A stretch of DNA of 64,000 bases from Escherichia phage SmurfNell, in sequence record OR896824.1. The stretch is one strand, 5' to 3'. Below are positions 8,904 through 44,094 of this stretch, piece after piece (positions within the stretch are counted from its first letter, which is position 1; every line of letters begins with the position of its first letter). The position numbers and the translations under genes are program-made. Under the pieces are notes generated by a model. The model ran no database searches. It worked only from the letters and a program-made list of their open reading frames with translations, and had not been told where the DNA came from.

Positions 8904-9158
8904 CTACACATCTAGTTCAACGATCTCCCAATCGTCGGCCAGAGCTTCGTCTAGAGTTAGCTCAGTGGTTTTCCACGATGCATCGTCTAGCGTGAGTTTA
9001 GTACGCCCATCTTTAGACCACCACCAAGTAAATTCTATAATGTCGTTATTATCAACATCTACTTTGATGATAGTGGTAGAATAAGTATTATTTTCCCAGC
9101 TATCTCGCTGGAGATATTTTACGTCTCCAGCTTTTAACAGACCAGTTAGTTTACTCAC
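8904..9158 (-). CDS. hypothetical protein (84 aa)
   Basis: ORF overlapping the upstream gene by 8 nt (translational coupling). Confidence 0.5.
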   Translation of the reverse strand: MSKLTGLLKAGDVKYLQRDSWENNTYSTTIIKVDVDNNDIIEFTWWWSKDGRTKLTLDDASWKTTELTLDEALADDWEIVELDV

Positions 9159-9855
9159 GGCGTTTTCCTTTCTCTTTATCGAGTTTCAAGGCAGCTTTAA
9201 CAGCTTCATTAACCAATGTGATAACTTCTTCACGGCTCCACTTAAAGCCCAGAGCCTTAACATCAACTCCCAGCTTTTCCAGATGTTTAACAGAAGCTAA
9301 TTCGTAGTGCATATAGTGAACGTTCTGTTGTTTACCTTCTGATAACAACCAAACACGATAGCAACCAACTGGGTTAGTCATTGCTTTCTTGATTTCACCA
9401 ATACACTGATAGCCAGGAACCCAAACAAGTTCACCAACTTCAAATTCCTCTGCCATTGCATCATCAGGAATCAATGGAGGATTCAATGGATCAACAATAT
9501 CATTTAAACGAAGCAGAGCACCGTAACGTTCCAGGACAGATTTAATCATCGCTACAGAACGATAATTACGATCAGCAATTTCTTCAAAAGAATCACCAGA
9601 AAGATACTGTTCAATTACGTTTGCAAGCTCAACACCTTCAATCAGTGTTCCACGCTTCTTCTTTTTCATTTCCGCAACTTGAACCTGACGATCTCTCCAT
9701 TCCTCGATCATTCGTTCCATAGTTGGGTTAGAAGAAACACCGAGCATTTCACATGCTACTTTCTTAGTACCACCATTCTCCAGATGTTCAATGACCTTTT
9801 TAAAGGTTTCATCAGGGATTTCATGGATAAGTTTCTTTCTACGAGAACCAGCCAT
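9151..9855 (-). CDS. putative HTH DNA-binding protein (234 aa)
   Basis: N-terminal HTH-like segment (GGTKKVACEMLGVSSNPTMERMIEEW); first gene downstream of the P_N25-like promoter. Confidence 0.55.
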   Translation of the reverse strand: MAGSRRKKLIHEIPDETFKKVIEHLENGGTKKVACEMLGVSSNPTMERMIEEWRDRQVQVAEMKKKKRGTLIEGVELANVIEQYLSGDSFEEIADRNYRSVAMIKSVLERYGALLRLNDIVDPLNPPLIPDDAMAEEFEVGELVWVPGYQCIGEIKKAMTNPVGCYRVWLLSEGKQQNVHYMHYELASVKHLEKLGVDVKALGFKWSREEVITLVNEAVKAALKLDKEKGKRRE

Positions 9856-10611: not shown

Positions 10612-13384
10612 TTCTAGCCCCCAATTCAGCAAGAGCTTCCTCATGCATCTGACGTTCTTCATCTGTCATAAACTTAACTGGAATCGGCATACATTCGATC
10701 TTACAGTAAGTTCTGTACCAGTCCACAATCTTTTCCGTATCCAGATCTTTACCGATACCCATCATGCCAAGATACATACGAGCATATTTTGGGTTAGCGC
10801 TCTGACCTGTCTTAAGGAAGAAATCCTTCTTCTTATTCTTAAGAGCTTCGATAAACGGTTTGATTGTTACGTTTGAACACTTTTTAATATCTTCCCAGAA
10901 CATGTCGTGCATCTTATGGAAGAATGCAGCTCTATCGTTTGGTTTATCCTTGATATACTGTTCAACGTGTTCCACTGTTACATCTTTAATAGAATCCAGA
11001 TGATAATAGCGAACCAGAAGCAATTTAGCTTCATAGGCATCTGCATGACGTGGTGCGCAATATTCAGGAGTTGAGTGCAAAATAGCTTTGATTCGCTCTT
11101 CTGTATACTCTTTGCCTGCACCTTCGATAGTTCCCCAGCTTTCACTGAAAATATCAATAGTTGCACCCTGATCAAGCAGATAATAACGCAAAGTACTAGT
11201 ATAGTTTCTGGACTCCAGTTCACGACGACGTGCATACAGCTGCTGAGCTAACTCAACCCAACCCTCATCAATATTATATTGCTCGGAACCCGCAGAAAAT
11301 CCACTCGTAGATTTATCAATAAAATAATAAATGTTCTGAGCACCACGGTCGCGCCTGATTGCTTGGAAACGCATGTTTGGCGCTTGGTTTGAGGTTCTAG
11401 TGATAACAAATACGTTATCAAAATAGTTAAAGTCAACGCCACTCGTTACAGATGGACTACATAACAAACAATCAATCTGTTGATCAATTAGCTCATTAGT
11501 AGTGTAATCCAGAATACGTCGGATATCTACATCAGACGTAGAGTTTGAGTGAATTTCTTTAACTAACGCACCAGTGTTACGACGTAACGCCATCCCCTTT
11601 TCATTCAGTTCATCTGGCCCACAGTCAGATACTAGGATTGATTTCTCCCCCATCTCTAGTGAAGTCTGGAGTGCGACCCAAATACTGGATTCATCAGGGA
11701 ACTCATATGCATGAGCTTTTGCCAGCATTTTACGGTGATGATTATAGAACGCGACCGGTTTATCAAAATCAATCAAAGAACCATAGGCTTCAATCGTTTC
11801 TGCACTGATATCACCATCAGATAAGATAACCGTTTTTGCAGTAATAAGAATATCGCGAAGAACCTGAATACATTCACGACGGTTTTTAACAACCGGGGCG
11901 AATAACAGATCATTCATTACTGCGTCACATTCATCAATAAAGATCGTATCAATCTGACCCACAAAGCTCTTGAACTTATGGATAGAGTGAATAGTTGAAG
12001 ACATACGATCAATAGCACCACGTTTGAAGTTCAGCATATCAACTGACTTATCATACTGACCAGCACCGAATTTCTTCGCGTTTGAAGATACAAGTGCCCT
12101 AGTATTCGTGATTGCAATAAAGTTTCCTGGAAGAACACCTGCATCTAGCCACTTAGTTACTGCTGTGGTTTTACCTGTACCAAGACTTGCCTTAACAAAT
12201 GTTAAATGTCCTTTTGGGGGTACAATGTTAATCTTCAAGTATGGAACTTCTGGCGGTGAATCTGTGTCCAGACGCTTTAGTGGTACACCTTTTAAGTTGG
12301 GTGGAATCTCACGTTTGGAGTTATTCACAAAGGCTTTTAGAGCCTGCTTACGACCGTTATTAAAGTAATCTTGAATATTACGACTATTATCTTTAGTTGC
12401 AATATATTCAGATAAAGCTGGTTTAATCTCACGTTCTAACCACGTAAAGTCAACACCATCTTCTAACGCTCTGTGATAAAGTTTTGGGATAATACGCAGG
12501 TACACCCCATCCTCAGCTTCTTCTAGTTCGCTGATGGTTTCTTCCACTTTATCAGATGCAGCCTTCTTGCCTTTAATTTGGTCAAGTAAGGAGTAGAATT
12601 CTTCTTTAAACTCACCTCTAGTTGTTTCAAAGTCAACTAGGTTATTGGGTAGATTCACTTTCGAACCCTTAACATACACAAGACGTGGTTTATTCTCCGC
12701 TTTAAACGGATCGACTATACCATCATCAAATAAGGGATCTGCGAAATAGTGAAGCTGAACAGAAGAATAATAAGCTAAGTCAGCAATATCAAAGCCATAC
12801 TTTTGCTTACTACTGTCATTGATGGATGTAAATAAGAATTTTAATTGCCCCTGCGTTACCTTGACATTAGATTCTAGCATTAAGTGCATTCGGATACCTG
12901 GTTTTAATCCAGCCGAAGACGATGCATGAGCAATAAACCCTGCATCAAGAGGAAACATATCCTCACTAATACTATTCAACATCTTAATAATATGACGTGC
13001 CATGCCAACAAGATTAAACTTGTCATAGCCACCAGTATCTACAATACCATCCACGTCCATAGCAATAATATGACTAGGATTGGATACGTTAAAGTTTCCC
13101 CTGGTACGACGCACATTATCTTTTGGAGCTAAACATTTACCACGAATAGCTACAATATGCGGGTCTTTGGTAAGACGACGCATGATAGGTAACATTTCAG
13201 CAAGGTTTTGCGGGTCAAGTTCTTCAAGTACATCAAATTTGAAGGGCATGGAAGCTGGTTTACCTTCTGGATGCTCTTTAGAGAATCGCTTTGCAAAGGT
13301 GTAATCTTCCACTTTGATCTCTTTCCAGATGCCAGTGGCTTTATCTCTGGAAAATCCTGCGTGACCTTGTAGGATTGAGAACAC
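10595..13384 (-). CDS. putative replication origin-binding / helicase-like protein (929 aa from GTG 13384)
   Basis: Walker A LGTGKTT and Walker B FIDECD in the central region; GTG start at 13384 has an AGGAG RBS 8 nt upstream, while the ORF-track ATG at 13507 adds an implausible Cys-rich N-terminus. Confidence 0.65.
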   Translation of the reverse strand: MFSILQGHAGFSRDKATGIWKEIKVEDYTFAKRFSKEHPEGKPASMPFKFDVLEELDPQNLAEMLPIMRRLTKDPHIVAIRGKCLAPKDNVRRTRGNFNVSNPSHIIAMDVDGIVDTGGYDKFNLVGMARHIIKMLNSISEDMFPLDAGFIAHASSSAGLKPGIRMHLMLESNVKVTQGQLKFLFTSINDSSKQKYGFDIADLAYYSSVQLHYFADPLFDDGIVDPFKAENKPRLVYVKGSKVNLPNNLVDFETTRGEFKEEFYSLLDQIKGKKAASDKVEETISELEEAEDGVYLRIIPKLYHRALEDGVDFTWLEREIKPALSEYIATKDNSRNIQDYFNNGRKQALKAFVNNSKREIPPNLKGVPLKRLDTDSPPEVPYLKINIVPPKGHLTFVKASLGTGKTTAVTKWLDAGVLPGNFIAITNTRALVSSNAKKFGAGQYDKSVDMLNFKRGAIDRMSSTIHSIHKFKSFVGQIDTIFIDECDAVMNDLLFAPVVKNRRECIQVLRDILITAKTVILSDGDISAETIEAYGSLIDFDKPVAFYNHHRKMLAKAHAYEFPDESSIWVALQTSLEMGEKSILVSDCGPDELNEKGMALRRNTGALVKEIHSNSTSDVDIRRILDYTTNELIDQQIDCLLCSPSVTSGVDFNYFDNVFVITRTSNQAPNMRFQAIRRDRGAQNIYYFIDKSTSGFSAGSEQYNIDEGWVELAQQLYARRRELESRNYTSTLRYYLLDQGATIDIFSESWGTIEGAGKEYTEERIKAILHSTPEYCAPRHADAYEAKLLLVRYYHLDSIKDVTVEHVEQYIKDKPNDRAAFFHKMHDMFWEDIKKCSNVTIKPFIEALKNKKKDFFLKTGQSANPKYARMYLGMMGIGKDLDTEKIVDWYRTYCKIECMPIPVKFMTDEERQMHEEALAELGARNDSEE

Positions 13385-31586: not shown

Positions 31587-31904
31587 ATGATTTTTCATAT
31601 TCTGATTGATGATGTTCGTGACCTGCATGGGATGGATATTATCATTCGAACCCCCGAAGCCGCTATTGAGTTTCTGAATACAACCGATACCACCGGACAT
31701 TTCGTTTATATGGATAATGATCTGGCTGTAGATGGTATGGAAGGTTATCAAATTCTTCGTTTACTCCTAGAATTTGGACAGAGACCCAAGAAAGTGGTAC
31801 TAGTAACCTCGAACCCTGTAGCTAAGCAGAACATGCGTAATGATTTGCTTGACGAAGGGTATCAAGAAAGCCCTAATCGTATTGAGTACGATTGGCCGGA
31901 GTAA
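31587..31904 (+). CDS. hypothetical protein with receiver-domain-like features (105 aa)
   Basis: Downstream of promoter 31528-31556; ILIDDVRD ... YMDNDLAVDGMEG ... VVLVTS pattern resembles a CheY-like receiver fold. Confidence 0.4.
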   Translation: MIFHILIDDVRDLHGMDIIIRTPEAAIEFLNTTDTTGHFVYMDNDLAVDGMEGYQILRLLLEFGQRPKKVVLVTSNPVAKQNMRNDLLDEGYQESPNRIEYDWPE

Positions 31905-32427: not shown

Positions 32428-32598
32428 ATGAAATCAGTTGTAATTATTGGTGTTAATACCCGTGGTATCCGTACTACGAAAACAGTTAAAACTACTAACG
32501 TTGCTGAAATTACTACAAACCCTAAGAAGTTTGATTTCGCCAAAGTCTCGGCAGTTATGACAGAACAATCTTTTAACCAAGCACTGGGAATTAAATAA
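32428..32598 (+). CDS. hypothetical small protein (56 aa)
   Basis: Below ORF-track cutoff; GAGAGGAAG RBS directly downstream of promoter 32368-32396. Confidence 0.45.
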   Translation: MKSVVIIGVNTRGIRTTKTVKTTNVAEITTNPKKFDFAKVSAVMTEQSFNQALGIK

Positions 32599-33041
32599 TG
32601 GAAGAAAATATTCTAAATGTTTTGCGTAGGGCTTTGCAGGAATCTAAGATTGATGGCTCTGATAAAGAGGTAGCTAAAAGCTACCAGACCATAATCGAAG
32701 ATCTTCAGCGTGTTGATAAAGACTTCATTACTTCTGAACAGTTTGTGTCTTATCTCAAAGCTCAGCTGAAAAGCATTAATCAGACGAAAGCTAAACTTCA
32801 TGGTCAAGACCTTGATAATTATAGCTTGCAGTCTGCTCAGTATGAATATATACTGAACAAATGGCTACAACAGTATCTGCCGCCTCAGCTTTCTGATTCT
32901 GAGATTCGCAAATACTTTGCAGAATTAGTTAAGTTGAACCCTGGGATTACGAAGAGTATGCTGATGAAAGCGATTAAGGAAGAATTCCCTGGTCGTTATG
33001 ACGGTGGCATCGCTGCTCAGGTTGCTGGCGAATTTAACTAA
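32598..33041 (+). CDS. hypothetical protein (147 aa)
   Basis: ORF overlapping the preceding stop (ATAATGG). Confidence 0.55.
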   Translation: MEENILNVLRRALQESKIDGSDKEVAKSYQTIIEDLQRVDKDFITSEQFVSYLKAQLKSINQTKAKLHGQDLDNYSLQSAQYEYILNKWLQQYLPPQLSDSEIRKYFAELVKLNPGITKSMLMKAIKEEFPGRYDGGIAAQVAGEFN

Positions 33042-38461: not shown

Positions 38462-38538
38462 GGGGGTGTAATCGAATTGGCATAGGTACTGGACTTAAAA
38501 TTCAGGTTTTGTGGGTTCGAATCCCACCACCCCTACCA
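38462..38538 (+). tRNA. tRNA with TAA anticodon (Leu-type) but short variable loop
   Basis: Acceptor GGGGGTG/CACCCCT, anticodon stem-loop CTGGA-CTTAAAA-TTCAG, T-arm GTGGG-TTCGAAT-CCCAC, A73, CCA; D-arm pairing weak. Confidence 0.5.
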
Positions 38539-39391: not shown

Positions 39392-39482
39392 GTTGGATTA
39401 GTATCGTAGAGGTAGCGAAGCAGACTGTAAATCTGCCGACTCGGAAGGGTCTCGGGTGGTTCGACTCCATCATCCAACACCA
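39392..39482 (+). tRNA. tRNA-Tyr (anticodon GTA), type II
   Basis: Anticodon arm GCAGACTGTAAATCTGC identical to E. coli tRNA-Tyr as recalled; perfect acceptor GTTGGAT/ATCCAAC; long variable arm; CCA. Confidence 0.8.
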
Positions 39483-39573: not shown

Positions 39574-39651
39574 CATTCCTAGAGTGTTACTGGACAGCAT
39601 GTCGGTCTCCAAAACCGTACGGTCTAGGTTCGAGTCCTAGTAGGTTTGCCA
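39574..39651 (+). tRNA. candidate tRNA-Trp (anticodon CCA); acceptor stem imperfect
   Basis: T-arm CTAGG-TTCGAGT-CCTAG and anticodon hairpin CGGT-CTCCAAA-ACCG are clear, but 5'/3' acceptor pairing has two U-U mismatches. Confidence 0.3.
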
Positions 39652-40554: not shown

Positions 40555-40637
40555 GGGTCGTTAGCCAAGCGGTTTGGCGGTGGACTGTTAATCCATGTCG
40601 AAAGACAACGTAGGTTCGAATCCTACACGGCCCGCCA
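40555..40637 (+). tRNA. tRNA with GTT anticodon (Asn-type) carrying a 13-nt variable arm
   Basis: Acceptor GGGTCGT/ACGGCCC, D-arm GCCA-AGCGGTT-TGGC, anticodon stem-loop GTGGA-CTGTTAA-TCCAT, variable arm GTCGAAAGACAAC, T-arm GTAGG-TTCGAAT-CCTAC, CCA. Confidence 0.6.
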
Positions 40638-40739
40638 TATTCTGTGTAGAGTTAAGTAAACCGGTAGCCAACCAGCTATCATTACTGATATTGAATTCAG
40701 TCACAGATACCATTTTCATTAATAACTGAGGAAATAGAT

Positions 40740-43561: not shown

Positions 43562-44023
43562 ATGGCTAGAACAGATATATTGGAAAGAAAGGATGAAATT
43601 CTTCTCTGGATAGAAGAAAATCAACCCAAAGCTGAAATTGCTAGAAGATTACGCTGCAAAGTTGATACACTGAATACTTATCTGAAAAAGATGGGAATAC
43701 AATATTCAGGTAACTCTGCTAGAAAAGGTTTTATACGTTCTGAGATACAGGATGGGTATATTCCGGCAGTGAATTACTTTTACAAAAATAGCCCAATATC
43801 TTCTAGTCAGCTTAGAATAAAGATACTACGTGATGGCTTAAAACCTCACAAATGTGAAAATTGTAATTTATCTGAATGGATGGGAGTTCCAATCCCCTTA
43901 GAGTTAGAGCATAAAGATGGTGATCATTATAATAATGAGTGGGATAATTTAGCTTTATTATGTCCCAACTGTCATACACTAACAGATACACATTCAGGTA
44001 AGAATAAAGGAACATACGCGTGA
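43562..44023 (+). CDS. HNH homing endonuclease (inside tRNA cluster)
   Basis: HNH core LELEHKDGDHYNNEWDNLALLCPNCH; flanked by tRNA genes on both sides. Confidence 0.7.
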   Translation: MARTDILERKDEILLWIEENQPKAEIARRLRCKVDTLNTYLKKMGIQYSGNSARKGFIRSEIQDGYIPAVNYFYKNSPISSSQLRIKILRDGLKPHKCENCNLSEWMGVPIPLELEHKDGDHYNNEWDNLALLCPNCHTLTDTHSGKNKGTYA

Positions 44024-44094
44024 TTGATGGAATTGGCATACATACCGTCCTTAGAAGTCGGGTTTTGAGGGTTCGAATCCCTTGTCACGCACCA
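44018..44094 (+). tRNA. tRNA with TAG anticodon (Leu-type) but short variable loop
   Basis: Acceptor GCGTGAT/GTCACGC, anticodon stem-loop CCGTC-CTTAGAA-GTCGG (one U-U), T-arm GAGGG-TTCGAAT-CCCTT, CCA; overlaps the HNH stop codon. Confidence 0.45.

What the first reader, a model, noticed from the sequence alone, without database searches (positions are those of the whole stretch)
40555..40637. Type II (long variable arm) tRNA carrying an Asn-type GUU anticodon
This tRNA folds cleanly with a 13-nt variable arm (GTCGAAAGACAAC), a feature normally restricted to Leu, Ser and Tyr tRNAs in bacteria, yet its anticodon loop CTGTTAA gives GUU. It may be a Ser/Leu/Tyr-derived tRNA whose anticodon changed, which could cause mis-charging or serve a non-canonical role such as a decoy or recoding.
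Basis: seen in the sequence. Interest (0 to 1): 0.55.

Follow-up and report, generated by a model that had tools for sequence, protein, structure and literature searches.

The report
Phage asparagine tRNA with extra arm
This is a real T5-like phage tRNA for asparagine with a conserved extra hairpin arm normally seen only in leucine, serine and tyrosine tRNAs, and the same design recurs in many unrelated phages, possibly as protection against bacterial tRNA-cutting defences.

Summary
Window 40555-40637 (+) is an 83-nt tRNA with anticodon GUU, discriminator G73, encoded CCA and a 13-nt variable region (GUC-GAAA-GAC-AAC). ARAGORN, the Rfam tRNA model (59 bits) and the free-energy fold all agree. 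The window is a T5-like phage (Epseptimavirus) carrying 30 tRNAs that cover all 20 amino acids, and this is its only Asn tRNA.

The tRNA is not a one-off. The identical gene is in more than 200 phage records, including SP15. Diverged copies occur in T4-like phages and Phapecoctavirus. A partial IMG/VR scan gave 97 distinct long-arm tRNA-Asn sequences, mostly inside tRNA arrays. Only about 16 of 185,579 bacterial and archaeal species genomes hold one.

The arm covaries like a true helix and its geometry is tRNA-Tyr-like. The D arm is class-II-like, but the acceptor stem, G73 and anticodon loop are Asn-type.

Mischarging or recoding is therefore unlikely: this is most probably the phage's working Asn decoder. 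T5 itself carries, at the same site, a class I tRNA-Asn with a mutated PARIS (AriB) cleavage site. The long-arm version keeps the host-like site.

My leading but unproven reading is that the arm shields the tRNA from defence nucleases. I found no paper describing this class.

The parts
40555..40637 (+). tRNA-Asn(GUU) gene, 83 nt, with encoded CCA
   Evidence: ARAGORN; Rfam tRNA model 59 bits; cloverleaf minimum-free-energy fold; 83/83 identical to the phage SP15 tRNA-Asn
40555..40561 (+). acceptor stem 5' strand GGGUCGU, pairing with 40627-40633 (ACGGCCC); G1-C72, G2-C71, G3-C70, U4.G69
   Evidence: this helix covaries across the family (helix 1)
40564..40578 (+). D arm: 4-bp stem GCCA/UGGC with the 7-nt loop AGCGGUU (C at position 16). 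Most relatives instead have a 3-bp stem and a 9-11-nt loop.
40580..40596 (+). anticodon arm GUGGA-CUGUUAA-UCCAU. Positions 36-41 read UAAUCC, identical to host tRNA-Asn at the PARIS AriB cleavage site (40|41).
   Evidence: cleavage site from PMC12409363
40587..40589 (+). anticodon GTT (Asn; reads AAC and AAU), followed by A37
40597..40609 (+). long variable arm: stem GUC (40597-40599) / GAC (40604-40606), GAAA tetraloop (40600-40603), unpaired AAC tail (40607-40609)
40610..40626 (+). T arm GUAGG-UUCGAAU-CCUAC
40634..40634 (+). discriminator G73, an Asn identity element and an antideterminant for TyrRS and LeuRS
   Evidence: identity tables in PMC9976931
40472..40547 (+). tRNA-Cys(GCA), 7 nt upstream. 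Together with the downstream element it marks the conserved slot in which T5 carries a different tRNA-Asn.
40640..40712 (+). conserved tRNA-like element downstream, homologous to the T5 feature annotated 'rna3'. It is context, not part of the tRNA.

Best explanation
This is the phage's working asparagine tRNA, a member of a widespread, phage-borne lineage of class-II-shaped tRNA-Asn.

Inferred steps: it is transcribed within the tRNA cluster and processed like its neighbours (the CCA end is encoded). Host AsnRS charges it with asparagine, reading G34-U35-U36(-A37) and G73, with no reported determinant in the tRNA core. It then decodes AAC and AAU, which make up about 51 per 1000 codons in this phage.

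Shown: the extra arm is a short helix, usually capped by a GNRA tetraloop, that is conserved by selection.

Inferred, about 40% likely: the arm, together with the altered D loop, makes the phage copy a poor substrate for host tRNA-directed defence nucleases. The prime candidate is PARIS AriB, which cuts host tRNA-Asn between positions 40 and 41, next to where the arm emerges. This would let the phage keep a host-like anticodon arm for charging, modification and decoding. T5 achieves the same end by mutating the cleavage site in a class I scaffold.

The confidence of 0.5 applies to the whole statement. That it is a functional Asn-accepting tRNA I put at about 0.85.
For: The tRNA is real and its arm is a real helix.

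The Asn identity set is complete here and conserved in the family. G73 occurs in 91 of 100 sequences, the anticodon loop is CUGUUAA, and the acceptor stem is nearest to class I tRNA-Asn in 55 of 100 cases. Identity rules come from PMC9976931.

It is the only Asn tRNA in a cluster of 30 tRNAs covering all 20 amino acids.

It is widespread and maintained:
- At least 99% identical in 207 phage records.
- 74-88% identical copies in Demerecviridae, Straboviridae and Phapecoctavirus.
- 97 distinct long-arm sequences in a truncated IMG/VR scan, about 24% of array-borne tRNA-Asn with this anticodon-arm motif.
- Only about 16 genuine cases in 185,579 species genomes, most of them inside arrays of 7-36 tRNAs.

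Arms-race context from the literature: AriB cleaves host tRNA-Lys, tRNA-Thr and tRNA-Asn at 40|41, and T5's own tRNA-Asn helps neutralise PARIS (PMC12409363).

T5 and this phage share homologous downstream flank and the same gene order at this position (tRNA-Cys upstream, rna3 and tRNA-Asp downstream), but carry two unrelated tRNA-Asn designs. The T5 type is in about 134 records and the long-arm type in about 284.

The window's Lys(UUU) and Thr(UGU) tRNAs and T5's tRNA-Asn have all lost U39 of the UAAUC motif, whereas the long-arm tRNA-Asn keeps UAAUCC.

Bas33 carries long-arm tRNA-Asn and long-arm tRNA-Thr(UGU), both with intact sites. It is rescued from PARIS by T5 tRNA-Lys alone. Its tRNA-Thr(UGU) gives strong counter-defence against OLD.

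There is experimental precedent that a variable arm decides nuclease resistance. The lengthened arm of SP15 tRNA-Tyr is required to neutralise Retron-Eco7 (PMC12673091).
Against: - There are no charging, expression or cleavage data for this tRNA. Its only experimental use I found was as a negative control against PrrC170.
- The Bas33 argument is indirect; high expression could explain the rescue just as well.
- Long-arm tRNA-Asn also occurs in arrays from Actinobacteria, Bacteroidota and others, where PARIS-like pressure is unknown.
- Among tRNA-Thr(UGU), long-arm copies are not significantly more likely to keep UAAUC (7 of 10 against 30 of 59).
- Class II synthetases approach tRNA from the variable-loop side (my own knowledge, not tested here), so tolerance of the arm by AsnRS is assumed, not shown.
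- The arm could simply be entrenched in a class II core.
Confidence: 0.5

Rival explanations
1. The tRNA is a functional tRNA-Asn, but the arm has no adaptive role. On this view it is an entrenched legacy of descent from a class II tRNA. A tRNA-Tyr(GUA) would need only A36U and A73G to become an AsnRS substrate. The arm is then kept because the class II core needs it to fold.
For: - The arm geometry equals that of tRNA-Tyr, and the GUC/GAC stem is the same as in E. coli tRNA-Tyr.
- The D arm is class-II-like in most members.
- Other long-arm isotypes in viral arrays mostly carry anticodons one step from class II anticodons: Ile UAU, Thr UGU, Cys GCA, Trp CCA, Met CAU.
- GUA to GUU is a single change, and Tyr to Asn is the one such shift where both synthetases read the anticodon and position 73.
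Against: - No donor is detectable. Nearest neighbours within an array sit at about 60-65% identity, which is noise level, and similarity to E. coli Tyr, Asn and Ser tRNAs is about equal.
- The acceptor stems are Asn-like, not Tyr-like.
- The window's own copy has re-acquired a class-I-type D arm (4 bp, 7-nt loop) yet kept the arm.
- The class is enriched in phages and almost absent from cellular genomes, which needs an explanation beyond neutrality.
- This rival explains origin rather than maintenance, so it is compatible with the main explanation.
Confidence: 0.3
2. The tRNA acts mainly as a decoy or competitive inhibitor of defence nucleases. Examples are PtuAB/Septu, which cut the tRNA-Tyr variable arm, and AriB. 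On this view it is not mainly a decoder.
For: - The variable stem GUC/GAC is identical to the E. coli tRNA-Tyr arm, where PtuAB/Septu cut.
- The anticodon loop differs from tRNA-Tyr by one base.
- The AriB authors raise the possibility that overexpressed viral tRNAs inhibit AriB by competition.
Against: - Full conservation of the Asn identity set and the encoded CCA points to charging.
- It is the only Asn tRNA in the phage's set.
- The arm sequence varies freely across the family (52 distinct stems), so mimicry of one host arm is not general.
Confidence: 0.07
3. The tRNA is mischarged by SerRS (long arm plus G73) or TyrRS, so that Asn codons are partly read as Ser or Tyr. This is the recoding or mistranslation idea of the first reader.
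For: The window copy has several E. coli Ser elements: G73, G1-C72, G2-C71, C11-G24, G30-C40 and a long arm. SerRS ignores the anticodon.
Against: - The arm is short (3 bp, against 4-7 bp in phage tRNA-Ser) and has a 3-nt 3' tail (against 1 nt), which is the Tyr rather than the Ser orientation.
- The window copy has U4.G69 instead of R4-Y69.
- 56% of the family have U1-A72, which breaks the G1-C72 conserved in bacterial tRNA-Ser.
- G73 is an antideterminant for TyrRS, and A36 is replaced.
- No second Asn tRNA exists to supply correct decoding.
- Proteome-wide Asn-to-Ser substitution in more than 200 phage isolates is implausible.
Confidence: 0.05
4. The gene is a non-functional relic (pseudogene).
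For: A decayed copy does exist in phage Bas34 (SelmaRatti). Its acceptor 3' strand is scrambled and ARAGORN makes no call.
Against: The window copy has a perfect cloverleaf, is identical in more than 200 records, and the family shows compensatory changes in every helix.
Confidence: 0.03

Closest known systems
Canonical bacterial tRNA-Asn (E. coli asnT/U/V/W)
   Same: The anticodon loop CUGUUAA is the same, the anticodon stem is nearly identical (GCGGA/UCCGU against GUGGA/UCCAU), and both have G73, A37 and positions 36-41 reading UAAUCC.
   Different: The host tRNA is class I: a 5-nt variable loop (AUGUC), U1-A72, and the D loop AGUCGGUA with U16. The phage tRNA has a 13-nt arm, G1-C72, and the D loop AGCGGUU with C16. 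Overall identity is 54/89 aligned columns.
Bacterial tRNA-Tyr (class II, short arm)
   Same: The variable-arm architecture is the same: 0-1 nt, a 3-bp stem, and a 3-nt 3' tail. E. coli tRNA-Tyr even has the same GUC/GAC stem. G34 and U35 are shared, and the T arm is similar.
   Different: tRNA-Tyr has A73 and A36, and usually G1-C72. The phage tRNA has G73 and U36, and the family's acceptor stems are Asn-like.
Phage T5 tRNA-Asn(GUU), shown to help neutralise PARIS (Belukhina et al. 2025, PMC12409363)
   Same: It occupies the same genomic slot between tRNA-Cys and rna3/tRNA-Asp, and has the same anticodon and G73.
   Different: The T5 version is a 78-nt class I tRNA with an aberrant anticodon stem and loop (GCAUC-UUGUUAA-GUUGA) that destroys the AriB motif (UAAGUU). 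Identity to the window tRNA is 53/86 aligned columns.
SP15 and T5 tRNA-Tyr with a remodelled variable arm that resists Retron-Eco7/Septu PtuAB (PMC11555353, PMC12673091, PMC13096335)
   Same: It is a T5-like phage tRNA whose variable arm differs from the host's, and that arm was shown experimentally to be required for counter-defence.
   Different: There the arm of an already class II tRNA is lengthened and the nuclease cuts within the arm. Here an arm is present on an isotype that normally has none, and no nuclease test exists.
Class II tRNAs with non-Leu/Ser/Tyr anticodons: nematode nev-tRNAs (PMC3333845) and bacterial allo-tRNAs / selC-type tRNA-Cys (reviewed in PMC7609411)
   Same: They combine a long variable arm with an anticodon for an amino acid whose tRNAs are normally class I.
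   Different: By the abstract, nev-tRNAs decode an alternative genetic code for leucine; allo-tRNAs take their amino acid from their own identity elements (mainly Ser and Ala) rather than from the anticodon. allo-tRNAs also share tRNA-Sec-like longer acceptor and anticodon stems (the 8/4 or 9/3 helix counts are from my own knowledge). The phage tRNA is 7/5 and carries the identity set matching its anticodon.
Type I (short-arm) tRNA-Leu, for example in Streptomyces coelicolor (PMC6614811)
   Same: This is the mirror-image class switch. The same window also carries two 77-nt tRNA-Leu genes.
   Different: An arm is lost rather than gained, and a different synthetase is involved.

Membership tests
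tRNA (Rfam RF00005) | Cloverleaf that scores above the family's gathering threshold | tested here: met
   59.0 bits against a threshold of 29, with all 71 model positions matched; ARAGORN call; cloverleaf minimum-free-energy fold
Bacterial tRNA-Asn (AsnRS substrate) | Anticodon G34-U35-U36 with A37 | tested here: met
   The loop is CUGUUAA at 40585-40591. Identity set from PMC9976931.
Bacterial tRNA-Asn (AsnRS substrate) | Discriminator G73 | tested here: met
   G at 40634; G73 in 91 of 100 long-arm family members
Bacterial tRNA-Asn (AsnRS substrate) | Class I architecture (4-5-nt variable loop) | tested here: not met
   The variable region is 13 nt and contains a helix
Bacterial tRNA-Asn (AsnRS substrate) | Actual aminoacylation with asparagine | not testable with these tools
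   No charging data were found. The T5 record notes that its (different) tRNA-Asn cannot be turned into an amber suppressor, which fits anticodon-dependent identity.
tRNA-Asn for the indirect (GatCAB) pathway | U1-A72 first base pair | tested here: not met
   The window copy has G1-C72. 56 of 100 family members have U1-A72. It should not be needed in E. coli or Salmonella, which (from my own knowledge) charge tRNA-Asn directly with AsnRS.
Class II (long-arm) tRNA | Variable region of 10 nt or more that forms a stem-loop | tested here: met
   13 nt with a 3-bp stem and a GAAA loop. All three pairs covary in the family.
Class II (long-arm) tRNA | 3-bp D stem with an enlarged D loop | tested here: not met
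   The window copy has a 4-bp stem and a 7-nt loop. The feature is met in 59% of family members, and 81% have loops of 9-11 nt.
tRNA-Ser (E. coli SerRS identity) | Long arm of Ser length and orientation (4-7 bp, about 1 unpaired nt at the 3' side) | tested here: not met
   The arm has 3 bp and a 3-nt tail, whereas phage tRNA-Ser arms have 4-7 bp and a 1-nt tail
tRNA-Ser (E. coli SerRS identity) | G73, G1-C72 (listed as C72), G2-C71, R4-Y69, C11-G24, G30-C40 | tested here: inconclusive
   The window copy meets G73, G1-C72, G2-C71, C11-G24 and G30-C40 but has U4.G69. Across the family G1-C72 is often replaced by U1-A72.
tRNA-Tyr (bacterial TyrRS identity) | A73 and anticodon GUA (U35 critical) | tested here: not met
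   The tRNA has G73 and U36; only G34, U35 and the arm geometry match
allo-tRNA / tRNA-Sec-like | 8/4 or 9/3 acceptor/T-stem arrangement (helix counts from my own knowledge; PMC7609411, says only that the acceptor and anticodon stems are longer than canonical) | tested here: not met
   The arrangement is the canonical 7/5
T5 counter-PARIS tRNA-Asn | Substitutions at or around the AriB cleavage site (positions 39-41) | tested here: not met
   The window tRNA keeps UAAUCC, as in the host. The only nearby change is G42 to A, compensated by C28 to U.

The most novel reading that the evidence does not exclude
Phages may systematically switch the structural class of their tRNAs as camouflage against tRNA-targeting immunity. 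They would add a Tyr-like arm to normally class I tRNAs (Asn above all, also Thr(UGU), Cys, Ile(UAU) and others) and delete the arm from tRNA-Leu. Synthetases that do not read the tRNA core would still charge them, while shape-reading defence nucleases such as AriB, OLD, PtuAB and others still unknown would not cut them. On this reading the long-arm tRNA-Asn is the commonest example of a general, so far undescribed counter-defence principle.
Probability: 0.3. Interest if true: 0.8.

Novelty: new variant of a known kind. Interest (0 to 1): 0.6.

Why it matters
Textbook rules restrict long variable arms in bacteria to tRNA-Leu, tRNA-Ser, tRNA-Tyr and tRNA-Sec. This finding is a phage-borne exception that is numerous, conserved and apparently undescribed, and it keeps the identity set matching its anticodon.

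It bears on two active questions.

- How do phage tRNAs escape tRNA-cleaving defences? PARIS is known to cut host tRNA-Asn, and T5-like phages depend on their own tRNA copies. Closely related phages carry either a site-mutated class I tRNA-Asn or a site-intact long-arm one in the same slot. That is a ready-made natural experiment on what AriB-type nucleases read outside the cleavage site.
- How much of the tRNA core does AsnRS tolerate? A naturally arm-bearing scaffold could be useful for engineering orthogonal or nuclease-resistant tRNAs.

There is also a practical point. Annotation pipelines label this gene inconsistently (tRNA-Asn, tRNA-Asx, or no tRNA feature at all).

Tried and rejected
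- BLAST of the tRNA against 5,426 E. coli genomes gave only E > 0.5 hits to tRNA-Lys and fragments, so there is no host donor.
- Nearest-neighbour search within arrays for a recent duplication from Tyr, Ser or Leu gave top identities of only 0.57-0.73 spread over many isotypes. This does not resolve the origin.
- Pairwise comparison with E. coli Asn, Tyr and Ser tRNAs gave about equal similarity.
- I tested whether the PARIS paper's remark that Bas34's own tRNA-Asn is insufficient speaks against protection by the arm. It does not: Bas34 (SelmaRatti, MZ501103) carries a decayed long-arm copy with a broken acceptor stem.
- I tested whether long-arm tRNA-Thr(UGU) keeps the UAAUC motif more often than short copies. 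The result, 7 of 10 against 30 of 59, rests on too few sequences.
- I tested whether class I tRNA-Leu co-occurs with long-arm tRNA-Asn. There is no association (p = 0.43).
- The promoter and terminator scan around the gene found nothing above the shuffled expectation.
- Eight full-text literature searches, plus a review of non-canonical tRNAs, found no description of a long-arm tRNA-Asn in phages. The library lacks most subscription journals, including the 1980s T5 tRNA papers.
- Many GTDB pattern hits were chance matches in coding DNA or tRNA-like repeats and were discarded.

Full report
**What is there.** The window is a T5-like phage. A 2-kb stretch around the finding is 98% identical to Escherichia phage EPS7 and to Salmonella Epseptimavirus genomes. 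ARAGORN finds 30 tRNA genes on the + strand between 33938 and 46248, covering all 20 amino acids, with a single Asn tRNA at 40555-40637.

That gene is 83 nt and reads GGGUCGU-UA-GCCA-AGCGGUU-UGGC-G-GUGGA-CUGUUAA-UCCAU-GUCGAAAGACAAC-GUAGG-UUCGAAU-CCUAC-ACGGCCC-G-CCA. The Rfam tRNA model scores it at 59 bits, twice the threshold, and models 10 nt of the variable region as an insertion. The unconstrained fold is the cloverleaf plus a GUC/GAC hairpin capped by GAAA.

**It is a family, not an oddity.** The 83-nt sequence matches 560 phage records, 207 of them at 99% identity or more. It is 83/83 identical to the tRNA-Asn of phage SP15. Copies of 82-88 nt at 74-88% identity occur in these groups:
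- Novosibvirus PM135.
- T4-like Straboviridae: CC31, PG7, CHI14, vB_SdyM_006, Cronus.
- Phapecoctavirus.

Their variable stems differ by compensatory changes: GUC/GAC, GUUC/GAAC, UCC/GGA and GUCA/UGAC.

It yielded 95 loci with ARAGORN-confirmed long tRNA-Asn, mostly within arrays of 5-35 tRNAs. Together with the phage-database and genome hits these gave 97 distinct long-arm sequences.

An unbiased version of the pattern (5-30 nt) gave 15 previously seen long-pattern loci among 120 hits, 14 of them genuine. Among loci with at least 5 tRNAs there were about 11 long against 35 short.

The same scan of one genome for each of 185,579 bacterial and archaeal species gave 72 hits. Only 18 were called as long-pattern tRNA-Asn, and about 16 are genuine long-arm genes. 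Eleven of those sit in arrays of 7-36 tRNAs, for example in Micromonospora. The design is thus characteristic of phage and mobile tRNA arrays and nearly absent from cellular tRNA sets.

**The arm is a selected helix.**
- Among the 97 distinct sequences the variable region is 9-19 nt (mode 15).
- The stem is mostly 3-4 bp.
- The loop has 4 nt in 66 cases and is GNRA in 52 (GAAA in 36).
- There are 0-1 unpaired nt on the 5' side and 3-4 on the 3' side, and 52 distinct stem sequences.
- A hairpin of at least 3 bp forms in 84 of 97, against a mean of 56 (maximum 69) in shuffles.

On a MAFFT alignment of 38 diverse members, the cloverleaf-plus-arm structure is 89.9% paired, against 62% in shuffles and 34-47% when the partners are slid. 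The arm's three pairs all show changes on both sides, for example UA 12, AU 10, GC 9 at one pair and CG 10, GC 10, AU 6, UA 6 at another. It is 77% paired despite some misregister, comparable to the D stem.

**What kind of tRNA is it?** It is a mosaic.
- Arm geometry matches tRNA-Tyr from the same arrays (3 bp, 3-nt 3' tail). It does not match tRNA-Ser (4-7 bp, 1-nt tail) or tRNA-Leu (1-nt tail). The window's GUC/GAC stem is the same as in E. coli tRNA-Tyr.
- The D arm is class-II-like in most members: a 3-bp stem in 59% and a 9-11-nt loop in 81%. Class I tRNA-Asn has a 4-bp stem in 79%. By sequence the D arm is nearest to Ser, Leu and Cys. The window copy itself has a 4-bp stem and a 7-nt loop.
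- The acceptor end is Asn-type: G73 in 91 of 100, U1-A72 in 56 of 100, and nearest to class I tRNA-Asn in 55 of 100. tRNA-Tyr has A73 in 65 of 67 and G1-C72 in 57 of 67.

No recent donor is detectable. An origin by a Tyr-to-Asn anticodon shift (A36U plus A73G) is attractive but unproven.

**Charging.** Published identity rules for bacterial tRNA-Asn list G73 and G34-U35-U36-A37, with no core determinant (PMC9976931). All of these are present.

The rivals fail as follows.
- TyrRS needs A73, and G73 is listed as an antideterminant against TyrRS and LeuRS.
- SerRS reads the size and orientation of the arm plus acceptor pairs. Here the arm is short and Tyr-oriented, position 4-69 is U.G, and over half the family lack G1-C72.

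This is also the only Asn tRNA in a complete phage set, and Asn codons make up 51 per 1000 in the window's long ORFs. I therefore conclude it is the working Asn decoder. This is inferred, not shown; I found no charging data.

**Why the arm? Context from experiments.**
- The T5 tRNA-Lys, tRNA-Thr and tRNA-Asn variants together neutralise PARIS.
- AriB also reads distal features such as U16 in the D loop. A T5 tRNA-Lys given the E. coli cleavage site is still not cut (PMC12409363).

I found that T5 proper carries a different tRNA-Asn from this window. It is a 78-nt class I tRNA with the anticodon arm GCAUC-UUGUUAA-GUUGA (UAAGUU at positions 36-41). It sits in the same slot: gene order is conserved on both sides and the sequence downstream of the gene is homologous. 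The T5 type is in about 134 phage records and the long-arm type in about 284 at 90% identity or more.

In the window, tRNA-Lys(UUU) (UAACCG) and tRNA-Thr(UGU) (UAAGCA) have also lost U39. The long-arm tRNA-Asn keeps the host sequence UAAUCC and differs instead by C16 in a shortened D loop and by the arm.

Phage Bas33 carries a long-arm tRNA-Asn and also a long-arm tRNA-Thr(UGU) with an intact UAAUCA. It escapes PARIS when given only T5 tRNA-Lys. Its tRNA-Thr(UGU) is a strong counter-defence against the OLD tRNase.

For tRNA-Tyr of SP15, the phage-specific longer variable arm is required to neutralise Retron-Eco7.

Together these observations make [quoted passage not shown] the best-supported functional hypothesis. 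It remains an inference. The Bas33 data are indirect, and the class occurs in phages of many phyla where the relevant nucleases are unknown. An entrenched class II core is a serious alternative explanation.

**Literature and novelty.** The gene is annotated as tRNA-Asn (sometimes as tRNA-Asx, or not annotated as a tRNA at all) in hundreds of records. SP15's identical copy was expressed once, as a negative control against PrrC170. None of the papers I could search mentions its variable arm or a class of long-arm tRNA-Asn. That includes the PARIS/AriB study, the eLife paper on phage tRNA anticodon-loop mutations, and a review of non-canonical tRNAs. The library is incomplete, so prior description elsewhere cannot be excluded.

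I rate the finding a new variant of a known kind: a tRNA-Asn in a class II body. Interest is moderate to high because the class is common, conserved and immediately testable in an active field.

**Verdict.** The mischarging and recoding interpretation is not supported, and the class II kinship is partly supported. The most likely reading is a functional, phage-specific, arm-bearing tRNA-Asn. The arm is under selection and plausibly serves to evade nucleases.

Noticed in passing
window 38462-38538 and 44018-44094: Both phage tRNA-Leu genes (UAA and UAG) are 77 nt with a 5-nt variable loop, so they are class-I-shaped. They keep A73 and a class-II-type D arm (3-bp stem, 11-nt loop). T5's tRNA-Leu(UAG) is a normal 85-nt class II tRNA. 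In the sampled viral arrays about 45-50% of tRNA-Leu are short, independent of the tRNA-Asn type.
   Followed up: partly
L321 (Bas33/HildyBeyeler MZ501074) 12775-12861; also L025, L039, L075: Some T5-like and other phages carry a long-arm tRNA-Thr(UGU) of 87 nt, with variable arm A-GGA-GUAA-UCC-CGUU. It keeps the host-like AriB site UAAUCA. Published work shows that the Bas33 tRNA-Thr(UGU) gives strong counter-defence against OLD.
   Followed up: partly
viral loci L013-L132, for example L064, L065 (Cys), L029-L037 (Ile UAU), L027, L069 (Trp): Other normally class I isotypes also occur with Tyr-like, GNRA-capped arms in phage arrays: Cys GCA, Ile UAU, Trp, Met, Glu, Lys, His and more. They make up 4.0% of such tRNAs in arrays with long-arm tRNA-Asn, against 1.3% in arrays with short tRNA-Asn (p = 0.02).
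   Followed up: partly
window 40640-40712: A tRNA-like element lies directly after the tRNA-Asn gene. It has an acceptor-like stem UCUGUG/CACAGA and two internal hairpins. It is conserved with the T5 feature annotated 'rna3, putative tRNA-like RNA'; its function is unknown.
   Followed up: partly
L315 (Bas34/SelmaRatti MZ501103) 12599-12681: Bas34's annotated tRNA-Asn is a decayed copy of the long-arm type. It has C32U and a scrambled acceptor 3' strand, and ARAGORN makes no call. This explains why the PARIS study found Bas34's own tRNA-Asn insufficient.
   Followed up: yes
window 31587-31904 and 32598-33041: Two small ORFs lie upstream of the tRNA cluster. One matches the cyclic-phosphate-processing receiver domain cREC_REC (PF20274, 58.6 bits). 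The other, which by size and position corresponds to T5.081 (annotated 'tRNA amidotransferase'), matches YqeY weakly (23.8 bits, below the cut-off of 27). Both hint at RNA-repair or tRNA-binding functions next to the tRNA genes.
   Followed up: partly
L012 (T5 NC_005859) 9007-9525: In T5 a 519-nt ORF (T5.069) sits between tRNA-Cys and the class I tRNA-Asn and overlaps the tRNA's 5' end. The window has only a 7-nt spacer there. The tRNA-Asn swap may have travelled with this ORF.
   Followed up: no
GTDB loci L135, L153, L154, L160, L177, L187, L189: Genomes of Saprospiraceae and other Bacteroidota hold repeated tRNA-Asn-like segments (anticodon arm plus T arm) with a 7-8-bp arm of sequence CCGATAGCTATCGG or close variants. 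Some are tandem at about 128-nt spacing, and ARAGORN does not call them as tRNAs.
   Followed up: no
window 39575-39651: The phage tRNA-Trp(CCA) has two U.U mismatches at positions 2-71 and 3-70 of its acceptor stem.
   Followed up: no
window 39392-39482: The phage tRNA-Tyr has a 5-bp variable stem (GACUC-GGAA-GGGUC), longer than the 3-bp stem of E. coli tRNA-Tyr. SP15 carries a tRNA-Tyr of the same length (91 nt) in the same position, so this is probably the SP15-type arm shown to be needed against Retron-Eco7; I did not compare the two sequences.
   Followed up: partly
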